A stretch of DNA of 32,000 nucleotides, from NCBI GenBank assembly GCA_030849285.1, contig CP102982.1, positions 30,001-62,000 of the forward strand, given 5' to 3'. How positions within the stretch are numbered: position 1 is the first letter of the stretch; the number at the start of each line of letters is the position of its first letter. The notes beneath the pieces were generated by a model. It did no database searches and had not been told where the DNA came from. It was given only the letters and a program-made list of their open reading frames with translations. The stretch comes from Candidatus Saccharimonadota bacterium (lineage in GTDB: Bacteria; Pseudomonadota; Gammaproteobacteria; Enterobacterales; Enterobacteriaceae_A). This document shows positions 2,824 to 23,649 of this stretch, piece after piece. The position numbers and the translations under genes were made by a program.

Positions 2824-3648
2824 TTATATTTTATAATATTTATTTTTATAAAATTTATTAATTGTAATTAAGTTAGACAATATACAAAAATCAGATAATA
2901 AAATATTTTCAGCTCTATTGTTTGGATTTATTTTAATTAATTTTAATTGTTTTTTTGAAAATAAATTTTTAAAATTGTTTTTAATTTTTTTTCTACGTTG
3001 CTTAAAAGATTTTTTAATTACTAATTTTAAATTATTAATATTATTAACAAAATATTTTTTTTTAAAAGGTTTAATAATTAAAAAAATAGATTCAATTTTA
3101 GGTTTAGGTATAAAAGCGTTTTTAGATATTTTAAATATAGGTTTAATAATAAAATAATATTTAATAATAATATTTAAACGCCCAGGTTTTTTTTTATTAA
3201 TAATATATATTATTTTATCAAAAAATTCTTTTTGTAATAAAATATATACACATTTTATATAATATAAATATTTTATAATATAAAAAATTAAATTTGTTGA
3301 TATATTATATGGTATATTACCAAAAAGTTTTATTAATTTACATTCTTTTTTAGCTATATTTAATAAATTAATTTTAAAAATATTTTTTTTATAAATTAAA
3401 ATTTTTTTATTTTTAAATTGTAAAAATTTTTTTAGAAAAAATATTAAATTTTTATCAATTTCTATTAAAATAATTTTATTTATATTTAATATTATTAATT
3501 TTGAAATTATACCAAATCCAACACCAATTTCTATTAATATGTTTTTTTTTTTAATTTTTATTATTTTAATAATTTTTTTAATAATATATAAATTATTTAA
3601 AAAATTTTGACCTAATTTTTTTTTTGGAGTAAATTTTTTTATAAACAT
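2824..3648 (-). CDS. rsmA: 16S rRNA (adenine1518/1519-N6)-dimethyltransferase
   Basis: 274 aa with the N-terminal KKLGQNFL, the SAM-binding EIGVGFG and the GNIPYNIST motif typical of KsgA/RsmA. The rest is strongly N/I/K-biased. Confidence 0.88.
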   Translation of the reverse strand: MFIKKFTPKKKLGQNFLNNLYIIKKIIKIIKIKKKNILIEIGVGFGIISKLIILNINKIILIEIDKNLIFFLKKFLQFKNKKILIYKKNIFKINLLNIAKKECKLIKLFGNIPYNISTNLIFYIIKYLYYIKCVYILLQKEFFDKIIYIINKKKPGRLNIIIKYYFIIKPIFKISKNAFIPKPKIESIFLIIKPFKKKYFVNNINNLKLVIKKSFKQRRKKIKNNFKNLFSKKQLKLIKINPNNRAENILLSDFCILSNLITINKFYKNKYYKI

Positions 3649-5418: not shown

Positions 5419-7230
5419 TTAAAAATAAATATTTTTTCGATTCATTATTTTTTTAATTTGTTCATAATTTAATGTTTCATATTTAAGTAAAGCTTCTTTC
5501 ATAGAATATAAAATATCAATGTTTTTAATTAATAAATTTTTAGCTTTAATATAATTATTTTCTATTATTATTTTAATTTCTTGATCAATTATATATAATG
5601 TTGCATCTGATATAAATTTTAATTTACCTTTATCATTTTCAACATTAAAAATATTATTATTTTCATTATCATATAAAAGTGGGCCTAATTTTTTAGAAAA
5701 ACCCCATTTAGTAATCATATTTCTTGCAATTAAAGTTGCGTTTTTAATATCATTATATGATCCAGTTGATATTTTATGTTTACCATATATTATTTCTTCT
5801 GCTATTCTACCTCCATATAAAGTAGATATTTTACTTTCTAATTTTTTGAAATTTTCACTTAAAATATCTGTTTTAGGGAGAAAAAAAGTAATACCCAATG
5901 CATTACCTCTTGGTATAATACTAACTTTATGTATTGGATCTTGTTCAGGTAATAAACAACCTATAATTGCATGACCAGATTCATGAAATGCTATTAATTC
6001 TTTTTGTTTAATTGATATTAACAAAGATTTTTTTTCAACTCCCATTATAATTTTATCTCTTGCTTTCTCTAATTCTAACATTGTTACTTTTTTTTTTTTC
6101 TCACGAACAGTTAATAAAGCTGCTTCATTTATTAAATTTGATAAATCAGCACCAGAAAAACCAGATGTACTTCTAGCTATTAAAGATAAATTAATATTTT
6201 TAGATGTTATTATATTTTTAATATGAACTTTTAAAATCTTTTCTCTACCTTTTATATCAGGAAGTCCTATATATACTTTTCTATCAAAACGCCCTGGTCT
6301 TAGTAAAGCTTTATCTAAAATATCTGGTCTATTTGTTGCAGCTATAATAATAACATTAGGATTTTCTTCAAAACCATCCATTTCAACTAAAATTTGATTT
6401 AAAGTTTGTTCCCTTTCATCATTATTACCACCCCCCCACGAACCTCTTTGTCTACCAACAGCATCAAGTTCATCAATAAAAATAATACAAGGTGAAAATT
6501 TTTTAGCTTGAATAAACATATTTCTAACACGAGAAGCGCCTACTCCAACAAACATTTCAACAAAATCTGATCCAGAAACCGAAAAAAAGGAGACTTGGGA
6601 TTCACCAGCAACAGCTTTAGCTAATAAAGTTTTACCAGTTCCAGGTGGACCAATCATTAATACTCCTTTTGGTATTTTAACTCCTATTTTTATAAAATCA
6701 TCAGGATTTTTAAAAAAATCAATAATTTCTCTTAATTCTTCTTTAACTTCTTCACATCCAGCAACATCTTTAAAAGTTACTTTTATTTGATTAGGTTTAA
6801 ATAATTTAGCTTTACTTTTAATAAAAGATATTACATTTTTACCTCCATTTTGTATTTGTTTTATAAAAAAAATCCATATTCCAATTAATAATATCATAGG
6901 CACCCAAGATATAAAAATAGTTAAAAAAAAATTATTATTATTATTTTTATTACCTATAATTTTAACATTTTTAATTAATAAAGTATCTAATAATTTAGAA
7001 TCATTTATTGGAATATAAGTATTGTATTTATCATTATTTTTTTTAATAACATCAATTTTTTTATCAATAATTTTTACTTCTTTTATTTTATTTTTTGTTA
7101 AATCTGTAATAAATTTAGAATACTCAACATAATTATTATTATATGTTTTGTAAATTAAATTTTGAAAAAAAAACACAAAGGAGAATATAATTAATAAACA
7201 TAATATTAATTTTTTTATTATTTTATTCAT
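5419..7230 (-). CDS. ftsH: ATP-dependent zinc metalloprotease FtsH
   Basis: 603 aa with an N-terminal TM region, Walker A GPPGTGKT, Walker [12 protein letters not shown] ([19 protein letters not shown]) and the zinc motif HESGHA. Confidence 0.97.
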
Positions 7231-7241
7231 TTTAATACCCT

Positions 7242-7858
7242 TTATTTTAAAAATTTTAGAAAATGAAATGCTATTATGTATATTTCTTTAGATTTAATAC
7301 GAGAAGAAACAGGTTTAAAAATTTTAATTTTTTTAAATATTAAAGAAATATATTTAATATAATATTTAAAATTATTACCTTGAAATATTTTTATTATACA
7401 TATCCCTTTAAATTTTAATATATTTTTACAAATTTTAATAACTGATTTAAATAAATTTATTGATTTAGGAATATCAATTGATGAAATTCCACTTATATTA
7501 GGAGAAAGATCTGACATAATAATATCAACTTTATTATAACCAATATAATTAGTTATTTTATCAATAAAATCATTTTTTAAAATATTTTCTTTAAAATATT
7601 TTATACCTTTTATAGGGTTTATTTTTTTAATATCATATGCAATAACAACACCATTTTTACCTATTTTATTTTTAGCATATTTTGACCAACTACCAGGTGC
7701 AGCACCTAAATCAACAACAATCATATTTTTTTTAAATATTTTATAATGTTTTTGTATTTCATCAAGTTTAAACCATGCACGTGATATTAATTTTTTTTTT
7801 TAGAATAGTAAACATATTTATCTTTTAAATTTCTATTTATCCAATTATTTTTTTTCAT
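7242..7858 (-). CDS. rlmE: 23S rRNA U2552 2'-O-methyltransferase RlmE/FtsJ, interrupted by a 1-nt frameshift in an A11 tract
   Basis: ORF 7242-7724 ([11 protein letters not shown]...) matches residues ~53-209 of E. coli RlmE. My translation upstream gives MKKNNWINRNLKDKYVYYSKKK in one frame (from ATG 7858-7856) and (KKK)[23 protein letters not shown] in the ORF frame. Together these match E. coli [33 protein letters not shown]. The two frames meet in the sense-strand A11 run (7791-7801). A12 would restore a collinear protein. Confidence 0.85.
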
Positions 7859-7878
7859 ATAAATTAAAATTGTAAATT

Positions 7879-7942
7879 AAATAATTTAAAATTATAAATT
7901 AAGTTATTTTAAATAATTTAAAATTATAAATCAAGTAATTTT
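7879..7942. repeat. tandem duplication, 2 x 32 nt (30/32 identical) plus a degenerate third copy, in the divergent rlmE/glnS spacer
   Basis: 7879-7910 reads aaataatttaaaattataaattaagttatttt and 7911-7942 reads aaataatttaaaattataaatcaagtaatttt. A partial, indel-containing copy follows from 7943. Confidence 0.85.
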
Positions 7943-7979
7943 AAATAAATTTAAATTTTAAAATAAAGGGAAATTTTAA

Positions 7980-12918: not shown

Positions 12919-14031
12919 ATGATTAAAAACAATTTTTTAAATTATAAAATTCAAAAAATTTTAAAAAATTTAATTTATATAAAAAAAAAAATAAATTATA
13001 TTAAAAAGAAAAAACGTTTAATAAAAATTAATAATGAATTTAAAAAAAAAAATTTATATAGTAATTATAATTTTTTTTTAAAATTAAAAAAAGAAATTAA
13101 TTTAATTGAAAATATTTTTAAAAAAATTATTTTTTTGAAAAAAAATATATATGATAATATTGAATTATTAGAGATATTTAAACAAACTAAAGATAAAAGT
13201 ATTTTAAAATATATTATAAAAAATTTAGAACATTTAAATAATATAATAAATAATTTAGAAAATAAATATATATTTTTTAAAAAAAATGATAAATTAAATT
13301 GTTTTTTAAATATTAAATCAGGATCTGGAGGAATAGATTCTCAAAATTGGTGTAATATTCTATTAAAAATGTATTTAAAATGGGCAGAAAAAAAAAAATT
13401 TAAAATTGAATTTATTAATAAAAAAAATAATAATAATAATGGTATTAATTCAATTACTATTAAAATTATAGGTAATTATGCTTATGGATGGTTAAGAACT
13501 GAATCTGGTATTCATAGATTAGTTAGAAAAAATTTTTTAAATAATAAAAAAAGGCATACATCTTTTAGTTCAGTATTTGTTTATCCTGAATACAAAAATG
13601 ATAATATTAATAATAATGTAAATATTAAAGAATCAGATTTACGTATTGATTTATATCGTTCTTCAGGATCAGGAGGTCAACATATAAATAAAACAGAAAC
13701 AGCAGTAAGAATTACACATTTGCCAACAAATATTGTTGTAAAATGTCAAAATAATCGTTCACAATATATAAATAAAATTTCTGCTATTAAACAATTAAAT
13801 TTAAAATTATTAAATTTAGAAAATTTAAAAAAAAAAAAAAAAATAAAAAAAATTAATGATAATAAATTAAATATTTCTTGGAGTAATCAAGTAAGATCAT
13901 ATATTTTTGATAATTCTATTGTTAAAGATGTTAGAACAAATTTAAAGGTTAAAAATATAAAATATATTTTAGATGGTAATTTAGATTTATTTATTAAAAA
14001 TAATTTAAAAGCTGAAATAAATAATGATTAA
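12919..14031 (+). CDS. prfB: peptide chain release factor 2, encoded in a single frame
   Basis: 370 aa, collinear with E. coli RF2 from residue 1. It has GSGG, YAYGWLRTESGIHRLVRK, RHTSFSSVFVYPE, the GGQ motif (SGSGGQHINKTETAVRITH) and QNNRSQ. There is no internal TGA or frameshift site. The stop overlaps the lysS start (ATGATTAA). Confidence 0.93.
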   Translation: MIKNNFLNYKIQKILKNLIYIKKKINYIKKKKRLIKINNEFKKKNLYSNYNFFLKLKKEINLIENIFKKIIFLKKNIYDNIELLEIFKQTKDKSILKYIIKNLEHLNNIINNLENKYIFFKKNDKLNCFLNIKSGSGGIDSQNWCNILLKMYLKWAEKKKFKIEFINKKNNNNNGINSITIKIIGNYAYGWLRTESGIHRLVRKNFLNNKKRHTSFSSVFVYPEYKNDNINNNVNIKESDLRIDLYRSSGSGGQHINKTETAVRITHLPTNIVVKCQNNRSQYINKISAIKQLNLKLLNLENLKKKKKIKKINDNKLNISWSNQVRSYIFDNSIVKDVRTNLKVKNIKYILDGNLDLFIKNNLKAEINND

Positions 14032-15508
14032 AAAAAAAAAATTATATATTAATTATAAAATCAAAAAATTATATATTAAAAAATATATTTTTAAAATTAA
14101 AAAAAAAAAAAAATTTATACGTATAAATATATCTAATCAACTTCATAAAAAATATAATATTATAAAAAAAAAAAAAAAAATAGTAAGTGTTGCTGGAAGA
14201 ATGATAAATAAAAGAATAATGGGATCTGCATCTTTTGTAAAATTAAAAGATATGGGGGGTTATATTCAGTTATATATAACAAAAAATAAAATATCTAAAA
14301 CTTTATATGAAAAAAAATTTAAAAAATGGAATTTAGGAGATATTATAGGAGCAAAAGGTTTATTATTTAAAACAAAAACTGGTGAAATTTCTGTTTTTTG
14401 TATAGAATTGTATATTTTAAAAAAATCAATACATATTTTACCTGAAAAATTTAATAAAATTTTAGATCAAGAAATAAGATACAGACAACGTTATTTAGAT
14501 TTAATAATTAATAATAAATCTAATTATATATTTAAAATTCGCTCTAAAATTATATTTTATATACGTAATTATATGAATATAAATAAATTTATAGAAGTTG
14601 AAACTCCAATAATTCAAACAATTCCTGGAGGTGCTACAGCAAAACCATTTATAACTTATCATAATTCTTTAAATATTAAAATGTATTTACGTATTTCACC
14701 TGAATTATATCTTAAACGTTTAGTAATAGGGGGATTTGAAAGAGTTTATGAAATAAATAAAAATTTTAGAAATGAAGGAATATCTTCTAAACATAACCCT
14801 GAATTTACAATGATGGAAATTTATATGGCATATTCAAATTATAAAATATTAATTAAATTTATTGAATGTTTATTTAAAAATATAGTTAAAAAAATTATAG
14901 GTAAAACAAAAATTTTATATAAAAATAATTTTTTAAATTTTAATATACCTTTTAAAAAAATGACAATGTATAATTCAATTAAAAAATATTATAAATATAT
15001 TAATTTAAAATATATTTATAATATTTTTTATTTAAAAAAAATTTTTAAATCTATAAATATTAAAATTAAAAAATATTATAAAATTGGAAATTTTATTAAT
15101 AAAATATTTGAAATGATGATTATACCAAAATTAATAAAACCTACATTTATTACTAAATATCCTATTGAAGTTTCACCATTAGCTAAAAGAAACTCAAAAA
15201 ACCCAAGTATAGCTGATAGATTTGAATTATTTATAGGTGGTTTAGAAATTTGTAATGGTTTTTCGGAATTAAATAATTCTAATGATCAAAATAAAAGATT
15301 TAAAGAACAAATTAAAAATTTAAAAAAAAATAATAATAATACATCATTTAATGATAAAGATTATATTAAAGCATTAGAATATGGTTTACCTCCAACAGCG
15401 GGTTTAGGTATAGGAATAGATCGTATGATAATGATATTAACTAATAGTAATACAATTAAAGAGGTAATTTTATTTCCAATAATGAAAAAAAATGAAAATA
15501 AACTATAA
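14024..15508 (+). CDS. lysS: lysyl-tRNA synthetase (class II)
   Basis: 494 aa with VAGRMINKRIMGSASF, RYRQRYLDLI, EVETP, IPGGATAKPFITYHN, FRNEGIS, HNPEFTMME and GLPPTAGLGIGIDR. It sits next to prfB as in E. coli. The start is uncertain because the N-terminal 55 aa are poly-Lys rich. Confidence 0.95.
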   Translation: MIKKKKLYINYKIKKLYIKKYIFKIKKKKKFIRINISNQLHKKYNIIKKKKKIVSVAGRMINKRIMGSASFVKLKDMGGYIQLYITKNKISKTLYEKKFKKWNLGDIIGAKGLLFKTKTGEISVFCIELYILKKSIHILPEKFNKILDQEIRYRQRYLDLIINNKSNYIFKIRSKIIFYIRNYMNINKFIEVETPIIQTIPGGATAKPFITYHNSLNIKMYLRISPELYLKRLVIGGFERVYEINKNFRNEGISSKHNPEFTMMEIYMAYSNYKILIKFIECLFKNIVKKIIGKTKILYKNNFLNFNIPFKKMTMYNSIKKYYKYINLKYIYNIFYLKKIFKSINIKIKKYYKIGNFINKIFEMMIIPKLIKPTFITKYPIEVSPLAKRNSKNPSIADRFELFIGGLEICNGFSELNNSNDQNKRFKEQIKNLKKNNNNTSFNDKDYIKALEYGLPPTAGLGIGIDRMIMILTNSNTIKEVILFPIMKKNENKL

Positions 15509-15767: not shown

Positions 15768-18143
15768 ATGTTAAATAATTATAATTCAAAAAAAATTAAA
15801 ATTTTAAAAGGATTAGATGTTGTACGTAAATGTCCAGGTATGTATATAGGAAATATTAATAATGGAAATGGATTACATCATATGGTTTATGAAATAATTG
15901 ATAATTCAATAGATGAAATTATTATTAGTAAATGTAATAAAATTATAGTTACTATACATAATGATAATTCTATATCTATTCAAGATAATGGTGGAGGAAT
16001 TCCAGTAAATATTGATAAAAAAAAAAAAAAACCATTAGTAGAAATATTAATGACTATTTTACATACTGGAAGTAAATTTAATAATAAAAAAACAGGAGGT
16101 TTACATGGGGTTGGAGTTTCAGTTGTAAACGCTTTATCTAAAAAATTAAAATTAATAATTTATAAAAAAAAAATTTATAAACAATTTTATAATAATGGTA
16201 ATCCTAAAAATAAATTAAGATTAATTAAAAAAACGAACAAACATGGTACAATTATACGTTTTTGGCCTAATTTATCTATATTTACTAATATTACTAATTT
16301 TAATTATTATATTATATTAAAGCGTTTACATGAATTAACATTTTTAAATCCCAAAATTTCATTTTATATAAGAGATTTATATAATAATAAAAATGATTTT
16401 TTAAAACATTATGGTAAATTAAAATCATTTATTAAATTTTTAAATAAAAAAAAAAAAAAAATAAATAAAAAAATTTTTTTAGTTTCAGTAATTAAAAATA
16501 ATATTAACATTGATATTGCTATGCAATGGAATAATGGAATTAATGAAAAAATATATTGTTTTACTAATAATATAAAACAAATTGATGGAGGAAGTCATCT
16601 TTCTGGATTAAGAAATGCTATAACTAAATCTATAAATAATTTAATAGATAAAAAAAAAAAAATTAAAAATAATAATAGAATAGGATTAGTTTGTATTATT
16701 TCAATTAAACTTTATAATCCTAAATTTTCATCACAAATTAAAAATAAATTAATTTCTTCAGATATTAAAAAAATTATTGAAATAATAATAATTAAAAAAT
16801 TTAAAAAATATTTTAAAAAAAATAAAACTGATAAAAAAAAAATTATTAATAAAATATTAAATTCTAATGAAACAAAAAATACAATTAATAAATTAAATTA
16901 TATATATAAAAAAAAAAATTTAATTAATTTCAATATAATAAATAAATTAGCAAATTGCCAAGAAAAAAACCCATTATTTTCTGAATTATATTTAGTAGAA
17001 GGAGATTCTGCAGGTGGATCAGCAAAACAAGGTAGAGATAGAAAAATACAAGCAATTTTACCGTTAAAAGGAAAAATTTTAAATGTTGAAAAAGCAAATT
17101 TTAACAAAATAATAGATTCAAAAGAAATTTTATCTTTAATTTCAGTAATTGGTTATAAAATTGGAATTAAAAAATATAATTTTAATAAAATTAAATATAA
17201 TAAAATTATTATAATGACAGATGCAGATATTGATGGATCACATATTAGAACTTTATTATTAACATTTTTTTATAGACAAATGCCAGAAATAATAGAAAAC
17301 GGGCACATATATATAGCACAACCACCACTTTATAAACTTGAAAATAATAACAATAAATACTATATAAAAGATGAAAAAAATATGAATAAATATAAAATTA
17401 ATATAGCAATTAAAAAAACTAAATTATTTAATAAAAAAATAAATTTCAAAAAAAAAAATCTTAAAAAAATAATATATGAATATTTTATTATAAAAAAAGA
17501 AATTAATAATATTAATAAAAAGTATCCCCATGATTTACTTATTTATTTAATTTATCAACCCTTTTTTTTAAGTTTTAATGATTTTAATAATTTTAAAATT
17601 ATTAAAAAATGGTTAAATATAATAATTAATAAAATAAATAAAATATATAAAAATAATTTTATTTATTATAAAATAAAAATTATAAAAAATATTAAAAAAA
17701 AAATATATGAACTATTATTTTGTAAAAATATTTATGGTAATAATATTTATTATAAAATAAATGCTAAATTTTTAAATAGTATTCAATACAAAAAAATTTT
17801 TAATTTAAGTAATAAATTATATTTATTATTTAATGAAAAAACTAAAATAATTAGAAAAAAAAATATTAAAAAAATATATTCTTTAGAAGAAGCGTTAAAT
17901 TGGCTTTTTAATGAAATTAAGGGGGACTTTATTATAAAAAGATATAAGGGTTTAGGTGAAATGAATCCAAATCAATTATGGGAAAGTACTATGAATCCTA
18001 ATAATAGAAATATGTTACGTGTTTATATAAAAAATAAAATATATACTAATAAATTATTTAATATTTTAATGGGTGATAATGTTAAATATAGACGTAATTT
18101 TATAGAAAATAATGCTTTAAATGTATTAAATATAGATATTTAA
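15768..18143 (+). CDS. gyrB: DNA gyrase subunit B
   Basis: 791 aa with GLDVVRKCPGMYIG, GLHHMVYEIIDNSIDE, GGLHGVGVSVVNALS, EGDSAGGSAKQGRDR, PLKGKILNVEKA, IIIMTDADIDGSHIRTLLLTFF and YKGLGEMNP. Confidence 0.97.
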   Translation: MLNNYNSKKIKILKGLDVVRKCPGMYIGNINNGNGLHHMVYEIIDNSIDEIIISKCNKIIVTIHNDNSISIQDNGGGIPVNIDKKKKKPLVEILMTILHTGSKFNNKKTGGLHGVGVSVVNALSKKLKLIIYKKKIYKQFYNNGNPKNKLRLIKKTNKHGTIIRFWPNLSIFTNITNFNYYIILKRLHELTFLNPKISFYIRDLYNNKNDFLKHYGKLKSFIKFLNKKKKKINKKIFLVSVIKNNINIDIAMQWNNGINEKIYCFTNNIKQIDGGSHLSGLRNAITKSINNLIDKKKKIKNNNRIGLVCIISIKLYNPKFSSQIKNKLISSDIKKIIEIIIIKKFKKYFKKNKTDKKKIINKILNSNETKNTINKLNYIYKKKNLINFNIINKLANCQEKNPLFSELYLVEGDSAGGSAKQGRDRKIQAILPLKGKILNVEKANFNKIIDSKEILSLISVIGYKIGIKKYNFNKIKYNKIIIMTDADIDGSHIRTLLLTFFYRQMPEIIENGHIYIAQPPLYKLENNNNKYYIKDEKNMNKYKINIAIKKTKLFNKKINFKKKNLKKIIYEYFIIKKEINNINKKYPHDLLIYLIYQPFFLSFNDFNNFKIIKKWLNIIINKINKIYKNNFIYYKIKIIKNIKKKIYELLFCKNIYGNNIYYKINAKFLNSIQYKKIFNLSNKLYLLFNEKTKIIRKKNIKKIYSLEEALNWLFNEIKGDFIIKRYKGLGEMNPNQLWESTMNPNNRNMLRVYIKNKIYTNKLFNILMGDNVKYRRNFIENNALNVLNIDI

Positions 18144-21108: not shown

Positions 21109-23649
21109 TTATTTATTATTTTTTAAAATTATATTAAATATTTTTTTTTTAATATATATTATTTTATAAATTTTATTTAAAATATTTTTTTTAAATATAA
21201 ATTTTTTTTTAATAATATTTAATATAAATTCTTTACTATAATTAGAATTAATTTTTAATTTATTAAAAAATTTACTATTTATTTGAATTATTATTTTTAA
21301 TTTTTTATTTAAAATTTTTTTATTAAAAACAGGCCAAGAAATAAAATCAATATTAATTTTTTCACCCAATAATTTCCAAATTTTAAAACAAATATGAGGA
21401 ATAAAGGGGTAAAGTAAACGAATTAAAACTAATAAACATTCATGTAAAATAAATTTATTATTATTTATTATATTTAAATTATTTAATTTATTTATAAATT
21501 TTACTATTCTAGAAATAATAGTATTAAGAGATTGACGATATTTAATATCATAATTTATTTCATAAATTAATTTATGTAAAAAAAAAATTATTTTTTTTTG
21601 ATTAAAAGTTAAAATTTTAATTTTTAAAGGTTTAATTTTTTTTTTTTTTATATGGTTAAAAACTATTTTCCAGAAACGTTTTAAAAATTTATGTATCCCA
21701 ATTAATTGCGATTCTTTCCATTCTAATTCTGATTCTATTGGTGAAGCGGATATAATAAAAAGACGTACAGTATCTGAACCATATTTTTTGATTATTTTAA
21801 TAGGATTAATTCCATTATTTTTAGATTTAGACATTTTAATCATACCTGCGTATTTTATTTTTTTTCCATTTTTATTTTTTAATTTTATAATTTTATTTTT
21901 AATATCAAATTCTATATTAATTTGATTTTTATAAATCCAAATTTTTTCTTTTTTTTTATTTAAATAATAAAAAGCATGTGACAAAACCATACCTTGACAA
22001 ATTAATTTTTTAACTGGTTCATTATAATTAATTAACCCAAAATCTCTAAATATTTTATGAAAAAATCTAAAATATAATAAATGCATAATAGCATGCTCTA
22101 TACCACCTATATATTGATCAACAGGTAACCAATAATTTGCTGATTTTAATTTTATAATATTTTTATTATATTTGGGACATGTATATCTTAAATAATACCA
22201 TGATGATTCTATAAATGTATCAAGAGTATCAGTTTCAAGTTTAGCATATTTATTATTAATTAAAATTTTAAAATATTTTAAATTATTTTTATTAAAATTT
22301 ATATTATTATTAAAAATATTTTCAGGTAAAATAATTGGTAATTGTTTTTCTGGAATTGTAATAATATTATTATTATTTATAATAGTAGCTATTGGTATAG
22401 GTGTTCCCCAATAACGTTGACGTGAAATATTCCAATCTAATAATTTATAAAATATTTTTTTTTTAATAAGATTAAATTTTATAAGTTTATTTAAAATAAT
22501 TTTTTTTTTTTTTTTAATATTTAATAAATTAAATTTATATGAATTCAAAAATAAATTATTTATAATATTAAATTTTAAATTATATATATTTAAAATTATT
22601 GGAATATTATATTTTTTAGAAAAAAAAAAATTATATTTATTATATTTCGGAATTGCTATATTTAATTTATTTATATTATCAGATAAAGTATAATTAACAA
22701 TCCATATTGGTATTTTTATTTTTGTAATTGGATGTATAACAAATAAATTAGAAAATATGCTTTTTTTTTTAAAATTACCCGAGTTTTTTTTAAAATATTT
22801 TAAAATAAATTTATTAATTTTAATATTCTTTTTTGATTCTTTTAATGAAATTGGGTTATTTATAGAAATTATAACATGTGAAATATACATTAAAAAAATT
22901 AATTTATTTAAATATATAACAATTTTTTTATTACTATTTAAAATATTAAAAGAAACTAAAATAATTTTAACCCTACCTATCCAATTTTTTTGCATATTTA
23001 TAACTTTAATTGGCCAATATTTTAAATATTTTAAATCATTTAATAATTGTTTAGCATAAATATTAATTTTTAAAAACCATTGATATAGTTTTTTTTTTTT
23101 TATTTTATTATCACATCTCCAACAATTATTATTTATTACTTGTTCATTAGCAAGTACTGTTTTATCATATTCACACCAATTTACTAATGATTTTTTTTTA
23201 TAAATTAATTTTTTTTTATACAATTTTATAAAAAACCATTGTTCCCACTTATAATATTCTGGTTTACATGTTATTATTTCTCTATCCCAATCATAAGAAA
23301 AACCTAAATATTTTAATTGTTTTTTCATTATTTTAATATTTTTATAAGTCCAAATTAATGGTGAAGTATTATGCTTAATTGCTGATGTTTCAGCTGGTAA
23401 TCCAAAAGCATCCCAACCCATTGGATGAATAACATTTTTACCATTCATTCTTTGAAATCTAGAAATAATATCACCTATAGTATAATTTCTAACATGACCC
23501 ATATGTAAATTACCAGAAGGGTATGGAATCATACACAAAATATAATATTTTTTAATATTAACATTTTTAATAGATTTAAAGGTTTTTTTAATATTCCAAT
23601 ATTTTTGGACATTTTTTTCTATATTTTTAAATAGATAATATTTATTCAT
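21109..23649 (-). CDS. leuS: leucyl-tRNA synthetase
   Basis: 846 aa with PYPSGNLHMGHVRNY (HIGH), GWDAFGLPAE, an editing-domain region and KMSKSKNNG (KMSKS). Confidence 0.97.
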   Translation of the reverse strand: MNKYYLFKNIEKNVQKYWNIKKTFKSIKNVNIKKYYILCMIPYPSGNLHMGHVRNYTIGDIISRFQRMNGKNVIHPMGWDAFGLPAETSAIKHNTSPLIWTYKNIKIMKKQLKYLGFSYDWDREIITCKPEYYKWEQWFFIKLYKKKLIYKKKSLVNWCEYDKTVLANEQVINNNCWRCDNKIKKKKLYQWFLKINIYAKQLLNDLKYLKYWPIKVINMQKNWIGRVKIILVSFNILNSNKKIVIYLNKLIFLMYISHVIISINNPISLKESKKNIKINKFILKYFKKNSGNFKKKSIFSNLFVIHPITKIKIPIWIVNYTLSDNINKLNIAIPKYNKYNFFFSKKYNIPIILNIYNLKFNIINNLFLNSYKFNLLNIKKKKKIILNKLIKFNLIKKKIFYKLLDWNISRQRYWGTPIPIATIINNNNIITIPEKQLPIILPENIFNNNINFNKNNLKYFKILINNKYAKLETDTLDTFIESSWYYLRYTCPKYNKNIIKLKSANYWLPVDQYIGGIEHAIMHLLYFRFFHKIFRDFGLINYNEPVKKLICQGMVLSHAFYYLNKKKEKIWIYKNQINIEFDIKNKIIKLKNKNGKKIKYAGMIKMSKSKNNGINPIKIIKKYGSDTVRLFIISASPIESELEWKESQLIGIHKFLKRFWKIVFNHIKKKKIKPLKIKILTFNQKKIIFFLHKLIYEINYDIKYRQSLNTIISRIVKFINKLNNLNIINNNKFILHECLLVLIRLLYPFIPHICFKIWKLLGEKINIDFISWPVFNKKILNKKLKIIIQINSKFFNKLKINSNYSKEFILNIIKKKFIFKKNILNKIYKIIYIKKKIFNIILKNNK

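What the first reader, a model, noticed from the sequence alone, without database searches (positions are those of the whole stretch)
7725..7858. rlmE (ftsJ) is split by a 1-nt frameshift inside an A11 tract, yet both halves remain conserved
The annotated ORF (7242-7724) starts at the SAM-binding motif and lacks the first ~50 residues of RlmE. Those residues are encoded just upstream. From ATG 7858 one frame reads MKKNNWINRNLKDKYVYYSKKKN-stop. The ORF frame reads stop-[36 protein letters not shown]. The frames switch in a sense-strand run of 11 A (7791-7801). With 12 A the product aligns residue-for-residue with E. coli ...[23 protein letters not shown].... The N-terminal piece still has its start codon and conserved residues, which argues against long-standing decay. 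Endosymbiont genes frameshifted at poly(A) tracts are known to be partly rescued by RNA polymerase slippage, as reported for Blochmannia and Buchnera. rlmE sits directly upstream of ftsH (11-nt spacer), so its translation state could also affect ftsH coupling. The alternatives are a homopolymer sequencing error or a recent pseudogene.
Basis: partly seen in the sequence, partly recalled or inferred. Interest (0 to 1): 0.7.

Follow-up and report, generated by a model that had tools for sequence, protein, structure and literature searches.

The report
Frameshifted rlmE kept across psyllid symbionts
The gene for a ribosome-methylating enzyme in a tiny insect-symbiont genome is broken by one missing A in a run of eleven; the same break occurs in symbionts of three psyllid species with no other decay, so it is probably still expressed by slippage on the A run, a trick already known from other endosymbionts.

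Summary
On the minus strand, ATG 7858 opens a 23-codon RlmE N-terminal piece. A run of 11 A (7791-7801) breaks the frame. The rest of RlmE continues in the -1 frame to 7242, 11 nt before ftsH. With 12 A the product matches RlmE end to end.

The window comes from 'Ca. Psyllophila symbiotica' of Cacopsylla picta. The same A11 break is present in five assemblies:
- two C. picta strains
- two C. melanoneura strains
- the Anomoneura mori symbiont, sequenced by another lab with Illumina only

Four relatives are in frame at the same site: A12, A13, A11T and A7GA4.

An assembly artefact is unlikely. All 36 other homopolymers of 10 nt or more inside the window's ORFs are in frame.

Decay is also unlikely. 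Conservation starts sharply at the start codon, and the invariant Trp and Asp and the K-D-K-E tetrad are kept. RlmE evolves no faster relative to its neighbour genes in A11 lineages than in intact ones.

Best explanation: a real frameshift that is tolerated because RNA polymerase slippage, and/or -1 ribosome slippage on A_AAA_AAA, restores the frame. This rescue is inferred, not shown. It is a new member of the kind known from Buchnera and Blochmannia, and it is mis-annotated in GenBank.

The parts
7906..7934 (-). Promoter-like site (TTGATT-17 nt-TAAAAT) upstream of the N-terminal piece. The TTGA(C/T) box recurs in six of the seven species compared.
   Evidence: Consensus scan (9 of 12 matches, weak on its own). 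TTGAC/TTGAT is visible upstream of rlmE in the alignment. It lies inside a 32-nt tandem repeat.
7787..7858 (-). N-terminal fragment of rlmE: ATG, 23 codons (MKKNNWINRNLKDKYVYYSKKKN), then TAA.
   Evidence: It adds about 23 bits to the RlmE profile match. It keeps the family-invariant Trp and Asp. Its nucleotide identity to relatives is 0.86-0.95 within Cacopsylla and 0.77 to the A. mori symbiont, against 0.33-0.64 (counting gaps) for the adjacent spacer (the close pair pyri-pyricola, 0.87, excepted).
7791..7801 (-). Sense-strand A11 tract, the site of the frame break. A12, A9 or A15 would join the two halves.
   Evidence: The homologous site is A11 in picta (2 strains), melanoneura (2 strains) and the A. 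mori symbiont. It is A12, A13, A11T or A7GA4 in four in-frame relatives.
7800..7802 (-). TAA that closes the core (-1) frame just upstream. With the stop at 7787-7789 it confines any frame change to the A tract.
   Evidence: Read directly from the sequence.
7785..7789 (-). TAATA: the stop of the N-terminal piece (7789-7787) overlaps an ATA codon (7787-7785), which PGAP used as the start of its 181-aa CDS.
   Evidence: The same TAATA is in the A. mori symbiont. C. melanoneura has TAAGA instead.
7242..7799 (-). Core reading frame of rlmE ([11 protein letters not shown]... to TAA). It holds the SAM motif VVDLGAAPG and the K-D-K-E tetrad.
7767..7769 (-). Lys codon equivalent to the catalytic K38 of E. 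coli RlmE. It lies after the frameshift but before the first canonical ATG.
   Evidence: Alignment to 1eiz (AWFKLDEI). The position was counted. That K38 is catalytic is established knowledge.
7722..7724 (-). First ATG of the core frame. It is an internal Met (PNM/[9 protein letters not shown]), also Met in 5 of the 7 species compared and in E. coli, not a genuine start.
7231..7241 (-). 11-nt rlmE-ftsH spacer AGGGTATTAAA, with a Shine-Dalgarno-like AGGG.
5419..7230 (-). ftsH, the downstream gene of the rlmE-ftsH pair.
   Evidence: Pfam FtsH_ext/AAA/Peptidase_M41 on the orthologous product.

Best explanation
rlmE in this Psyllophila genome carries a real 1-nt deficit in a Lys-coding poly(A) tract: A11 where 12 nt are needed. 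The gene is nevertheless functional.

Most transcripts or ribosomes produce only a 23-residue peptide that ends two codons after the tract. A fraction of expression events restores the frame within the tract. This can happen in two ways:
- RNA polymerase reiteratively adds an A on the T11 template. A12 or A15 mRNA gives ...YYS-KKKK(K)-LISRAWFK...
- The ribosome slips -1 on the A_AAA_AAA heptamer, or slides on the A run.

Both routes yield the same full-length RlmE.

Slippage blurs the difference between A11 and A12/A13 alleles, and only catalytic amounts of RlmE are needed. The tract length can therefore drift between frame states among lineages while purifying selection keeps both halves.

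Shown here:
- the anatomy of the break
- its presence in five assemblies of three lineages
- in-frame states in four relatives
- conservation of both halves

Inferred, not shown: that slippage occurs here, and at what rate.
For: (1) Anatomy. A single lesion is confined to a homopolymer, and both frames are open on either side of it.

(2) The repaired product is a full-length RlmE.

(3) The same A11 break occurs in C. picta window strain and PSpicST2 (99.85% identical). It also occurs in C. melanoneura Cmel17 and ET-AT1-13 and in the A. mori symbiont AP031381. The A. mori genome was sequenced on MiSeq only by another lab.

(4) Relatives assembled with the same hybrid pipeline are in frame with A12, A13, A11T or A7GA4. 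The pipeline can therefore A.

(5) All other long homopolymers are in frame. That covers 36 runs of 10 nt or more (up to A17) in the other 21 ORFs of the window, all of them full-length by profile coverage. It also covers 64 runs in neighbour genes of the nine loci.

(6) Conservation begins sharply at the start codon. The N-terminal piece is 0.86-0.95 identical within Cacopsylla (0.77 to the A. mori symbiont), against 0.33-0.64 for the spacer counting gaps (pyri-pyricola spacer 0.87 excepted). The fragment keeps the Trp and Asp that are invariant in 34 RlmE sequences.

(7) The K-D-K-E tetrad and the SAM motif are intact in all nine genomes.

(8) RlmE amino-acid divergence, normalised to FtsH+GlnS+DnaQ, is 1.13-1.14 for pairs with A11 lineages and 1.03 for intact pairs. 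This is the same kind of test, with the same outcome, as used for Blochmannia (PMC3017870).

(9) My neighbour-gene tree and the published tree both require at least 2-3 changes of frame state. The broken state is therefore either old or recurrent, and it is tolerated.

(10) In an AlphaFold model of the intact C. pruni ortholog, the tract lies at the end of the second N-terminal helix and in the loop leading to the core. A variable number of Lys should therefore be harmless.

(11) Precedent. Slippage at long poly(A) runs gives 12-50% corrected transcripts in Buchnera and Blochmannia (PMC5009743, citing Tamas 2008). Frameshifts conserved between species without degradation are reported in PMC3017870.
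Against: - There are no transcript, protein or rRNA-methylation data for any Psyllophila.
- NG86 dN/dS over the whole gene is somewhat higher for pairs that include A11 lineages (0.42-0.65) than for intact pairs (0.20-0.40). Selection may be mildly relaxed.
- C. melanoneura has changed the FQG motif to FYN.
- The genome is so full of long in-frame poly(A) tracts (up to A17) that frequent slippage would spoil many essential mRNAs. If this lineage's RNA polymerase has become more faithful on A runs, rescue at rlmE would be correspondingly rare.
- No stimulatory RNA structure follows the tract (z = +1.7).
- A11 could still hide a mixed A11/A12 genome population.
Confidence: 0.65

Rival explanations
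1. Young or recurrent pseudogene. The A12 tract is hypermutable and lost one A independently in three lineages. RlmE is simply not made there, and too little time has passed for further decay.
For: - Homopolymer indels are the usual first step of gene erosion in endosymbionts (PMC3017870).
- dN/dS is somewhat higher in pairs with A11 lineages.
- The FQG motif is altered in C. melanoneura.
- rlmE is not strictly essential in E. coli (PMC9074899 abstract).
Against: - Three of seven lineages are in the broken state, and it is fixed in both sampled strains of two species.
- There is no second lesion anywhere in about 620 nt in any of five assemblies, although the gene contains other A/T runs.
- The rate relative to neighbour genes is not elevated.
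- Invariant residues are kept in the orphaned N-terminal piece.
- These 220-240 kb genomes carry only 0-3 annotated pseudogenes, apart from the C. mali strain (12), so dead genes do not linger.
Confidence: 0.12
2. The core is translated on its own, without any frameshift. Ribosomes finishing the 23-codon upstream ORF at TAA would reinitiate at the overlapping ATA (TAATA), or initiate there directly as PGAP annotates. The product would be a 181-aa N-truncated but catalytically complete enzyme.
For: - The stop and ATA overlap by one base in C. picta and, through an apparently independent AGA-to-ATA change, in the A. mori symbiont.
- The product would begin almost exactly where the crystallised 180-residue E. 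coli FtsJ chain begins. Chain residue 2 aligns with residue 24.
- It retains K38.
Against: - ATA is a very poor bacterial start codon (established knowledge).
- C. melanoneura has A11 but AGA, not ATA. PGAP's ATA start there lies downstream of K38.
- No Shine-Dalgarno box precedes the ATA.
- This model gives no reason for the N-terminal piece to keep the invariant Trp/Asp and coding-level conservation.
- AGA-to-ATA and GCT-to-TCT are both G-to-T changes, which the AT mutational bias favours, so convergence is cheap.
Confidence: 0.08
3. Rescue happens at the DNA level. The symbiont is polyploid, and replication slippage keeps a sizeable minority of A12 genome copies. A11 is only the consensus, and the functional protein comes from the A12 copies.
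For: - Extreme polyploidy is documented for the co-resident Carsonella (cited in PMC11427311).
- A11/A12/A13 all occur among close relatives, which shows that the tract mutates readily.
- Intergenic homopolymer length differs between conspecific strains.
Against: - No read data are available to show heterogeneity.
- Consensus A11 was called five times.
- Other tracts of equal or greater length show no frame-breaking consensus.
Confidence: 0.08
4. Assembly or polishing artefact. The true tract is A12 and the gene is ordinary.
For: - The C. picta and C. melanoneura genomes were assembled from Nanopore R9.4 reads, which undercall homopolymers, before Illumina polishing.
- The A. mori DNA was whole-genome amplified.
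Against: - The same A11 appears in five assemblies, including an Illumina-only one from another laboratory.
- The same pipelines call A12 and A13 at this very site in C. mali(?) and C. pyricola.
- 36 of 36 other long runs in the window and 64 of 64 in neighbour genes are in frame, including A12-A18.
Confidence: 0.05

Closest known systems
Poly(A)-frameshifted genes of Buchnera aphidicola and Blochmannia that are rescued by transcriptional slippage (Tamas et al. 2008; Wernegreen et al. 2010; Williams & Wernegreen 2010, PMC3017870)
   Same: - An AT-rich obligate insect endosymbiont.
- A single indel inside a sense-strand poly(A) run of about 10-12 nt, in an otherwise intact gene.
- A frameshift shared between populations and species, with evidence for independent events or reversion.
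- No rate acceleration.
   Different: - A different lineage (Psyllophila, 220-240 kb, about 17% GC) and a different gene (rlmE).
- Slippage has not been measured here.
- Long coding poly(A) tracts are roughly ten times denser than in Blochmannia and reach A17. The cost-benefit balance of slippage may therefore differ.
dnaX recoding: -1 programmed ribosomal frameshift at A_AAA_AAG in E. coli, and transcriptional slippage on A9 in Thermus thermophilus (reviewed in PMC5009743)
   Same: - A Lys-codon slippery run.
- A -1 shift or a +1 A insertion leads to the alternative frame.
- The zero frame terminates shortly after the site.
   Different: - dnaX recoding makes two useful products and is fixed. 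In E. coli it is helped by an upstream SD-like element and a downstream hairpin.
- Here no stimulators were found.
- The zero-frame product is a 23-aa stub.
- Four of seven relatives are simply in frame.
Citrobacter rodentium tssM, an interrupted gene rescued by transcriptional frameshifting on a poly(A) run (PMC4256274)
   Same: A gene prematurely interrupted at an A run is expressed as full-length protein through RNA polymerase slippage.
   Different: That case is a free-living pathogen, it was shown experimentally, and both length variants are functional. Here the rescue is only inferred.
E. coli rlmE (ftsJ/rrmJ)-ftsH operon
   Same: - The same gene order and a short spacer.
- The same fold, SAM motif and K38-D124-K164-E199 tetrad.
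- RlmE is the one 23S modification enzyme whose loss causes a major growth defect (PMC9074899), which explains why a 225-kb genome keeps it.
   Different: E. coli has QKKG (AAAAAAGG-type codons) rather than a long A run at this site, and it is in frame.

Membership tests
RlmE/FtsJ 23S rRNA U2552 2'-O-methyltransferase | FtsJ-like methyltransferase domain with the SAM-binding motif (V)DLGAAPG | tested here: met
   PF01728 on P0001. NF008390 and TIGR00438 are the top hits, at 213.9 and 213.1 bits. Both are below NCBI's curated cut-offs of 269 and 300, as expected for an extremely AT-biased ortholog. The motif [11 protein letters not shown] is present.
RlmE/FtsJ 23S rRNA U2552 2'-O-methyltransferase | Catalytic K-D-K-E tetrad (E. 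coli K38, D124, K164, E199) | tested here: met
   All four residues align in the phmmer alignment to 1eiz. They are conserved in all nine Psyllophila-type genes.
RlmE/FtsJ 23S rRNA U2552 2'-O-methylttransferase | N-terminal W...D.YV motif preceding RSRAxxKL, encoded in one continuous reading frame | tested here: not met
   The motif residues are present: W6, D13 and V16, which are invariant or nearly invariant in 34 sequences. They lie in a different frame from the core, separated by the A11 tract. Continuity needs one extra A.
RlmE/FtsJ 23S rRNA U2552 2'-O-methyltransferase | Methylates U2552 of 23S rRNA | not testable with these tools
   Needs RiboMethSeq or primer extension on bacteriome RNA.
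Endosymbiont genes frameshifted in poly(A) tracts and rescued by slippage | A single indel confined to a homopolymer of 9 nt or more, with the gene otherwise intact | tested here: met
Endosymbiont genes frameshifted in poly(A) tracts and rescued by slippage | Frameshift shared by distinct populations or species, without further degradation or rate acceleration | tested here: met
   Five assemblies from three host species share it. The RlmE-to-neighbour divergence ratio is about 1.1, against 1.03 for intact pairs. dN/dS is mildly higher.
Endosymbiont genes frameshifted in poly(A) tracts and rescued by slippage | mRNA pool heterogeneous in tract length with frame-corrected species, and full-length protein made | not testable with these tools
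Programmed -1 ribosomal frameshift (dnaX type) | Slippery heptamer X_XXY_YYZ in the zero frame | tested here: met
   A_AAA_AAA lies within tcT AAA AAA AAA AAT.
Programmed -1 ribosomal frameshift (dnaX type) | Downstream stimulatory structure and/or upstream SD-like stimulator | tested here: not met
   The 113-nt fold gives -6.4 kcal/mol and z = +1.73, with 196 of 200 shuffles folding at least as well. No GGAGG-like box lies upstream.
Programmed -1 ribosomal frameshift (dnaX type) | The recoding site is conserved in relatives | tested here: not met
   Four of seven species are in frame at the site.

The most novel reading that the evidence does not exclude
The frame-broken A11 state is ancestral to the whole Psyllophila / A. 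mori-symbiont clade. Two changes of state explain the tree under this reading, against three if the ancestor was in frame. Selection would then hold A11 as a genuine recoding device, not merely tolerate it. For example, it could set RlmE output far below FtsH from their shared promoter, or couple ribosome maturation to the fidelity state of the expression machinery. The stop-overlapping ATA that arose in parallel in C. picta and A. mori could be a second, reinitiation route.
Probability: 0.12. Interest if true: 0.65.

Novelty: new member of a known kind. Interest (0 to 1): 0.45.

Why it matters
- Annotation. Five public genomes model rlmE as a truncated CDS with an ATA start (181, 178 or 166 aa), and a second annotation of the A. 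mori genome as a 157-aa 'hypothetical protein'. The 166- and 157-aa versions even lack the catalytic K38. None of the three Psyllophila genome papers mentions a frameshift or rlmE.

- A clean natural experiment. Closely related symbionts carry A11, A12, A13, A11T or A7GA4 at one site of one conserved gene. Slippage rates, RlmE protein level and Um2552 stoichiometry can therefore be compared directly between hosts.

- A wider question. This genome packs in-frame coding runs up to A17. How does a 225-kb genome with that many slippery tracts make enough correct mRNA?

Tried and rejected
- Exact-sequence look-ups of the window's FtsH and of the 160-aa ORF found nothing. The window strain itself is not indexed. 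The sister strain PSpicST2 was reached through the homology search.
- The look-up of the DFAST 157-aa A. mori protein failed. The PGAP 178-aa version worked.
- A metagenome-wide scan for the conserved 33-mer downstream of the tract found no further relatives. The genome-contig scan gave only one close relative, because that collection holds one genome per species.
- The search for a frameshift-stimulating RNA structure downstream of the tract was negative.
- NG86 dN/dS on the 19-codon N-terminal piece alone gave 0.15 to 2.9, too noisy to use. I relied instead on nucleotide identity against the spacer, on invariant residues and on relative rates.
- The idea that rlmE translation controls ftsH by coupling was set aside, because ftsH has its own AGGG box.
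- Tamas 2008 and Wernegreen 2010 are not in the held library. They are cited through PMC3017870 and PMC5009743.

Full report
WHAT IS THERE

On the minus strand, ATG 7858 opens a 23-codon ORF, MKKNNWINRNLKDKYVYYSKKKN, which ends at TAA 7789-7787. A sense-strand run of exactly 11 A occupies 7791-7801. The -1 frame is closed by TAA 7802-7800. It then reads [36 protein letters not shown]... through to TAA 7244-7242, 11 nt before the ftsH start at 7230.

The two stops confine any frame change to the A tract. One extra A gives a 205-aa protein that matches the NCBIfam RlmE equivalog over positions 11-205 of 209, at 213.9 bits. The ATG-7724 ORF scores 157.5 bits and the 181-aa piece after the tract 191.2 bits. 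The repaired protein also matches E. coli FtsJ at 1e-46.

The catalytic Lys equivalent to K38 (codon 7769-7767) lies after the frameshift but before the first canonical ATG. A product started at ATG 7724 would therefore be catalytically incomplete.

ORGANISM

The window is 99.85% identical over 6.5 kb to CP102981.1, with 9 substitutions and one intergenic homopolymer indel. CP102981.1 is 'Ca. Psyllophila symbiotica' strain PSpicST2 of the apple psyllid Cacopsylla picta. The window is therefore a second C. picta strain. The window averages about 17% G+C.

It encodes, in full length by profile coverage: ribB, def, asnS, rsmA, lipA, ftsH, glnS, dnaQ, gltX, pfkA, prfB, lysS, gyrB, an MdfA-like transporter, holA, leuS, aceF, aceE, bioD, bioB and bioA. 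It also carries three tRNAs and RNase P RNA.

COMPARATIVE PICTURE

I retrieved the rlmE locus from eight further genomes and read the tract in each.

Frame broken, always A11:
- C. picta, 2 strains: TCT-A11-TTAATA
- C. melanoneura, 2 strains: GCT-A11-TTAAGA
- the Anomoneura mori symbiont AP031381: TCT-A11-TTAATA

In frame:
- C. pruni: A7GA4
- CP181165 (222,480 bp, probably C. mali): A12
- C. pyri: A11 followed by T
- C. pyricola: GT-A13

A neighbour-joining tree of FtsH+GlnS+DnaQ reproduces the published topology: (A. mori,((picta,(melanoneura,pruni)),(mali,(pyri,pyricola)))). On that tree the frame state changed at least twice if A11 is ancestral, and three times if the ancestor was in frame.

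IS IT AN ARTEFACT?

The Cacopsylla genomes were assembled from Nanopore R9.4 reads and polished with NovaSeq reads. C. pyri was Illumina-only. The A. mori genome came from a different laboratory and used MiSeq only.

The same pipelines call A12 and A13 at this very site in other species. In the window, 36 other homopolymers of 10 nt or more (up to A17) lie inside the other 21 ORFs, and every one is in frame. In the neighbour genes of the nine loci, 64 of 64 such runs are in frame. Systematic undercalling of A12 as A11 is therefore very unlikely. I put it at about 5%.

IS IT A DECAYING PSEUDOGENE?

The evidence points away from decay:
- The multi-species alignment is poorly conserved and full of indels in the glnS-rlmE spacer. 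It becomes highly conserved exactly at the start codon of the N-terminal piece.
- Pairwise identity of that piece is 0.86-0.95 among Cacopsylla symbionts (0.77 to the A. mori symbiont), whether or not a lineage is frameshifted. The spacer scores 0.33-0.64 when gaps are counted, apart from the very close pair pyri-pyricola (0.87).
- The piece keeps the Trp and Asp that are invariant in an alignment of 34 RlmE proteins, and the nearly invariant Val.
- The K-D-K-E tetrad and the SAM motif are intact in all nine genes, and none has a second lesion.
- RlmE amino-acid divergence divided by that of FtsH+GlnS+DnaQ is 1.13-1.14 for pairs that include A11 lineages and 1.03 for in-frame pairs. There is no pseudogene-like acceleration.

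There are caveats. NG86 dN/dS over the whole gene is somewhat higher with A11 lineages (0.42-0.65 against 0.20-0.40). C. melanoneura has changed the FQG motif. Some relaxation is therefore possible.

MECHANISM

Moving from the N-terminal frame to the core frame needs a +1 nt change in the RNA or a -1 step by the ribosome. Both give ...[15 protein letters not shown]...

The tract is a T11 template, of the length at which bacterial RNA polymerases reiterate. [quoted passage not shown] Frameshifts conserved between Blochmannia species without degradation are documented (PMC3017870).

The zero-frame codons tcT AAA AAA AAA AAT also contain the fully slippery heptamer A_AAA_AAA. I found no downstream structure (z = +1.73) and no upstream SD-like box. 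A dnaX-type programmed site is therefore not supported, and any ribosomal contribution would rest on the run alone.

An AlphaFold model of the intact C. pruni ortholog has mean pLDDT 86.9. It places residues 3-22 in two helices and the Lys run at the end of the second helix and the start of the loop that precedes the K38 helix. Products with three, four or five Lys (A9, A12, A15 mRNAs) should all be acceptable.

My best explanation (0.65) is a real frameshift made nearly neutral by such slippage. The tract length then drifts among frame states while both halves stay under selection. Slippage itself is inferred, not shown.

A caution: this genome carries so many long in-frame A runs that high slippage would damage many essential mRNAs. 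gyrB alone has eight runs of 10 nt or more. If fidelity on A runs has improved in this lineage, rescue would be weaker.

RIVALS

- Young or recurrent pseudogene (0.12).
- Separate translation of the core from the ATA that overlaps the upstream stop (TAATA) (0.08). PGAP annotates it this way. The ATA arose in C. picta and, apparently independently, in A. mori. It is absent in C. melanoneura, ATA is a very poor start codon, and this model leaves the N-terminal conservation unexplained.
- A12 minority genome copies in a polyploid symbiont (0.08).
- Assembly artefact (0.05).

COMPARISON AND NOVELTY

This works like the poly(A) frameshifts of Buchnera and Blochmannia, and it meets the computationally testable criteria of that class. 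The criteria are a single indel in a long homopolymer, an otherwise intact gene, sharing across populations and species, and no rate acceleration. The defining experimental criteria, heterogeneous transcripts and full-length protein, could not be tested.

It fails two of three criteria for a dnaX-type programmed frameshift.

It is a new member of a known kind. The lineage is new (Psyllophila and the A. mori symbiont), the gene is new (rlmE), and the case is unrecognised so far. The three genome papers do not mention it. GenBank carries five truncated CDS models with ATA starts, and one 'hypothetical protein' model from the submitters' own annotation.

Interest is moderate. A specialist would not be surprised by the mechanism. 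The series A11 / A12 / A13 / A11T / A7GA4 at one site in sister symbionts is, however, a convenient natural experiment.

Noticed in passing
window, whole; e.g. 13827-13843 (A17, prfB), 14164-14180 (A17, lysS), 16446-16461 (A16, gyrB), 22500-22515 (A16 sense, leuS): The density of long sense-strand poly(A) runs inside intact genes is extraordinary. There are 36 homopolymers of 10 nt or more in 32 kb, and gyrB alone has eight. That is roughly ten times the density reported for Blochmannia (PMC3017870). If RNA polymerase slips on these as it does in Buchnera, most mRNAs of such genes would be out of frame.
   Followed up: partly
window 12919-14031 (+): prfB (release factor 2) is a single uninterrupted ORF covering profile positions 2-353 of 353. 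The classical programmed +1 frameshift of prfB is absent here.
   Followed up: partly
L082 6031-6501 (C. melanoneura Cmel17) versus L087 6032-6501 (strain ET-AT1-13); window 2824-3648: In Cmel17, rsmA (16S dimethyltransferase) is called as two pieces of 165 and 126 aa. It is one 277-aa gene in the conspecific strain ET and 274 aa in the window. The break lies just beyond the fetched DNA, next to a poly(A) run that starts near 6493. It may be a second, strain-polymorphic poly(A) frameshift in an rRNA methyltransferase.
   Followed up: partly
window 7877-7966: A 32-nt tandem repeat lies in the glnS-rlmE spacer (2.8 copies, 87% matches). It carries the TTGAT/-35-like box, and C. melanoneura shows a similar pair of ACTTGAC/ACTTAAT boxes. 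This may be a duplicated promoter.
   Followed up: no
window 7785-7787; L082 about 3001; L085 3001: NCBI PGAP gave the truncated rlmE genes non-canonical ATA start codons (P0001 181 aa, P0005/P0121 166 aa, P0123 178 aa). DFAST called the A. mori gene a 157-aa hypothetical protein (P0006). The 166-aa and 157-aa models lack the catalytic K38.
   Followed up: yes
window 5408 versus L081; L082 5779 versus L087: Between conspecific strains, the only length differences in 6.5 kb are single-base changes in intergenic homopolymers: A8 versus A7 in C. picta, and a T run in C. melanoneura. Coding runs differ only by substitution, for example T11 versus T12 through G-to-T in melanoneura glnS.
   Followed up: yes
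L083 (CP181165.1): This record is 222,480 bp, whereas the paper gives 222,308 bp for Psyllophila of C. mali. The paper also lists 12 pseudogenes in essential genes (smpB, rplP, ileS, leuS, valS...). Either the record was revised, or these are further homopolymer frameshifts worth checking.
   Followed up: no
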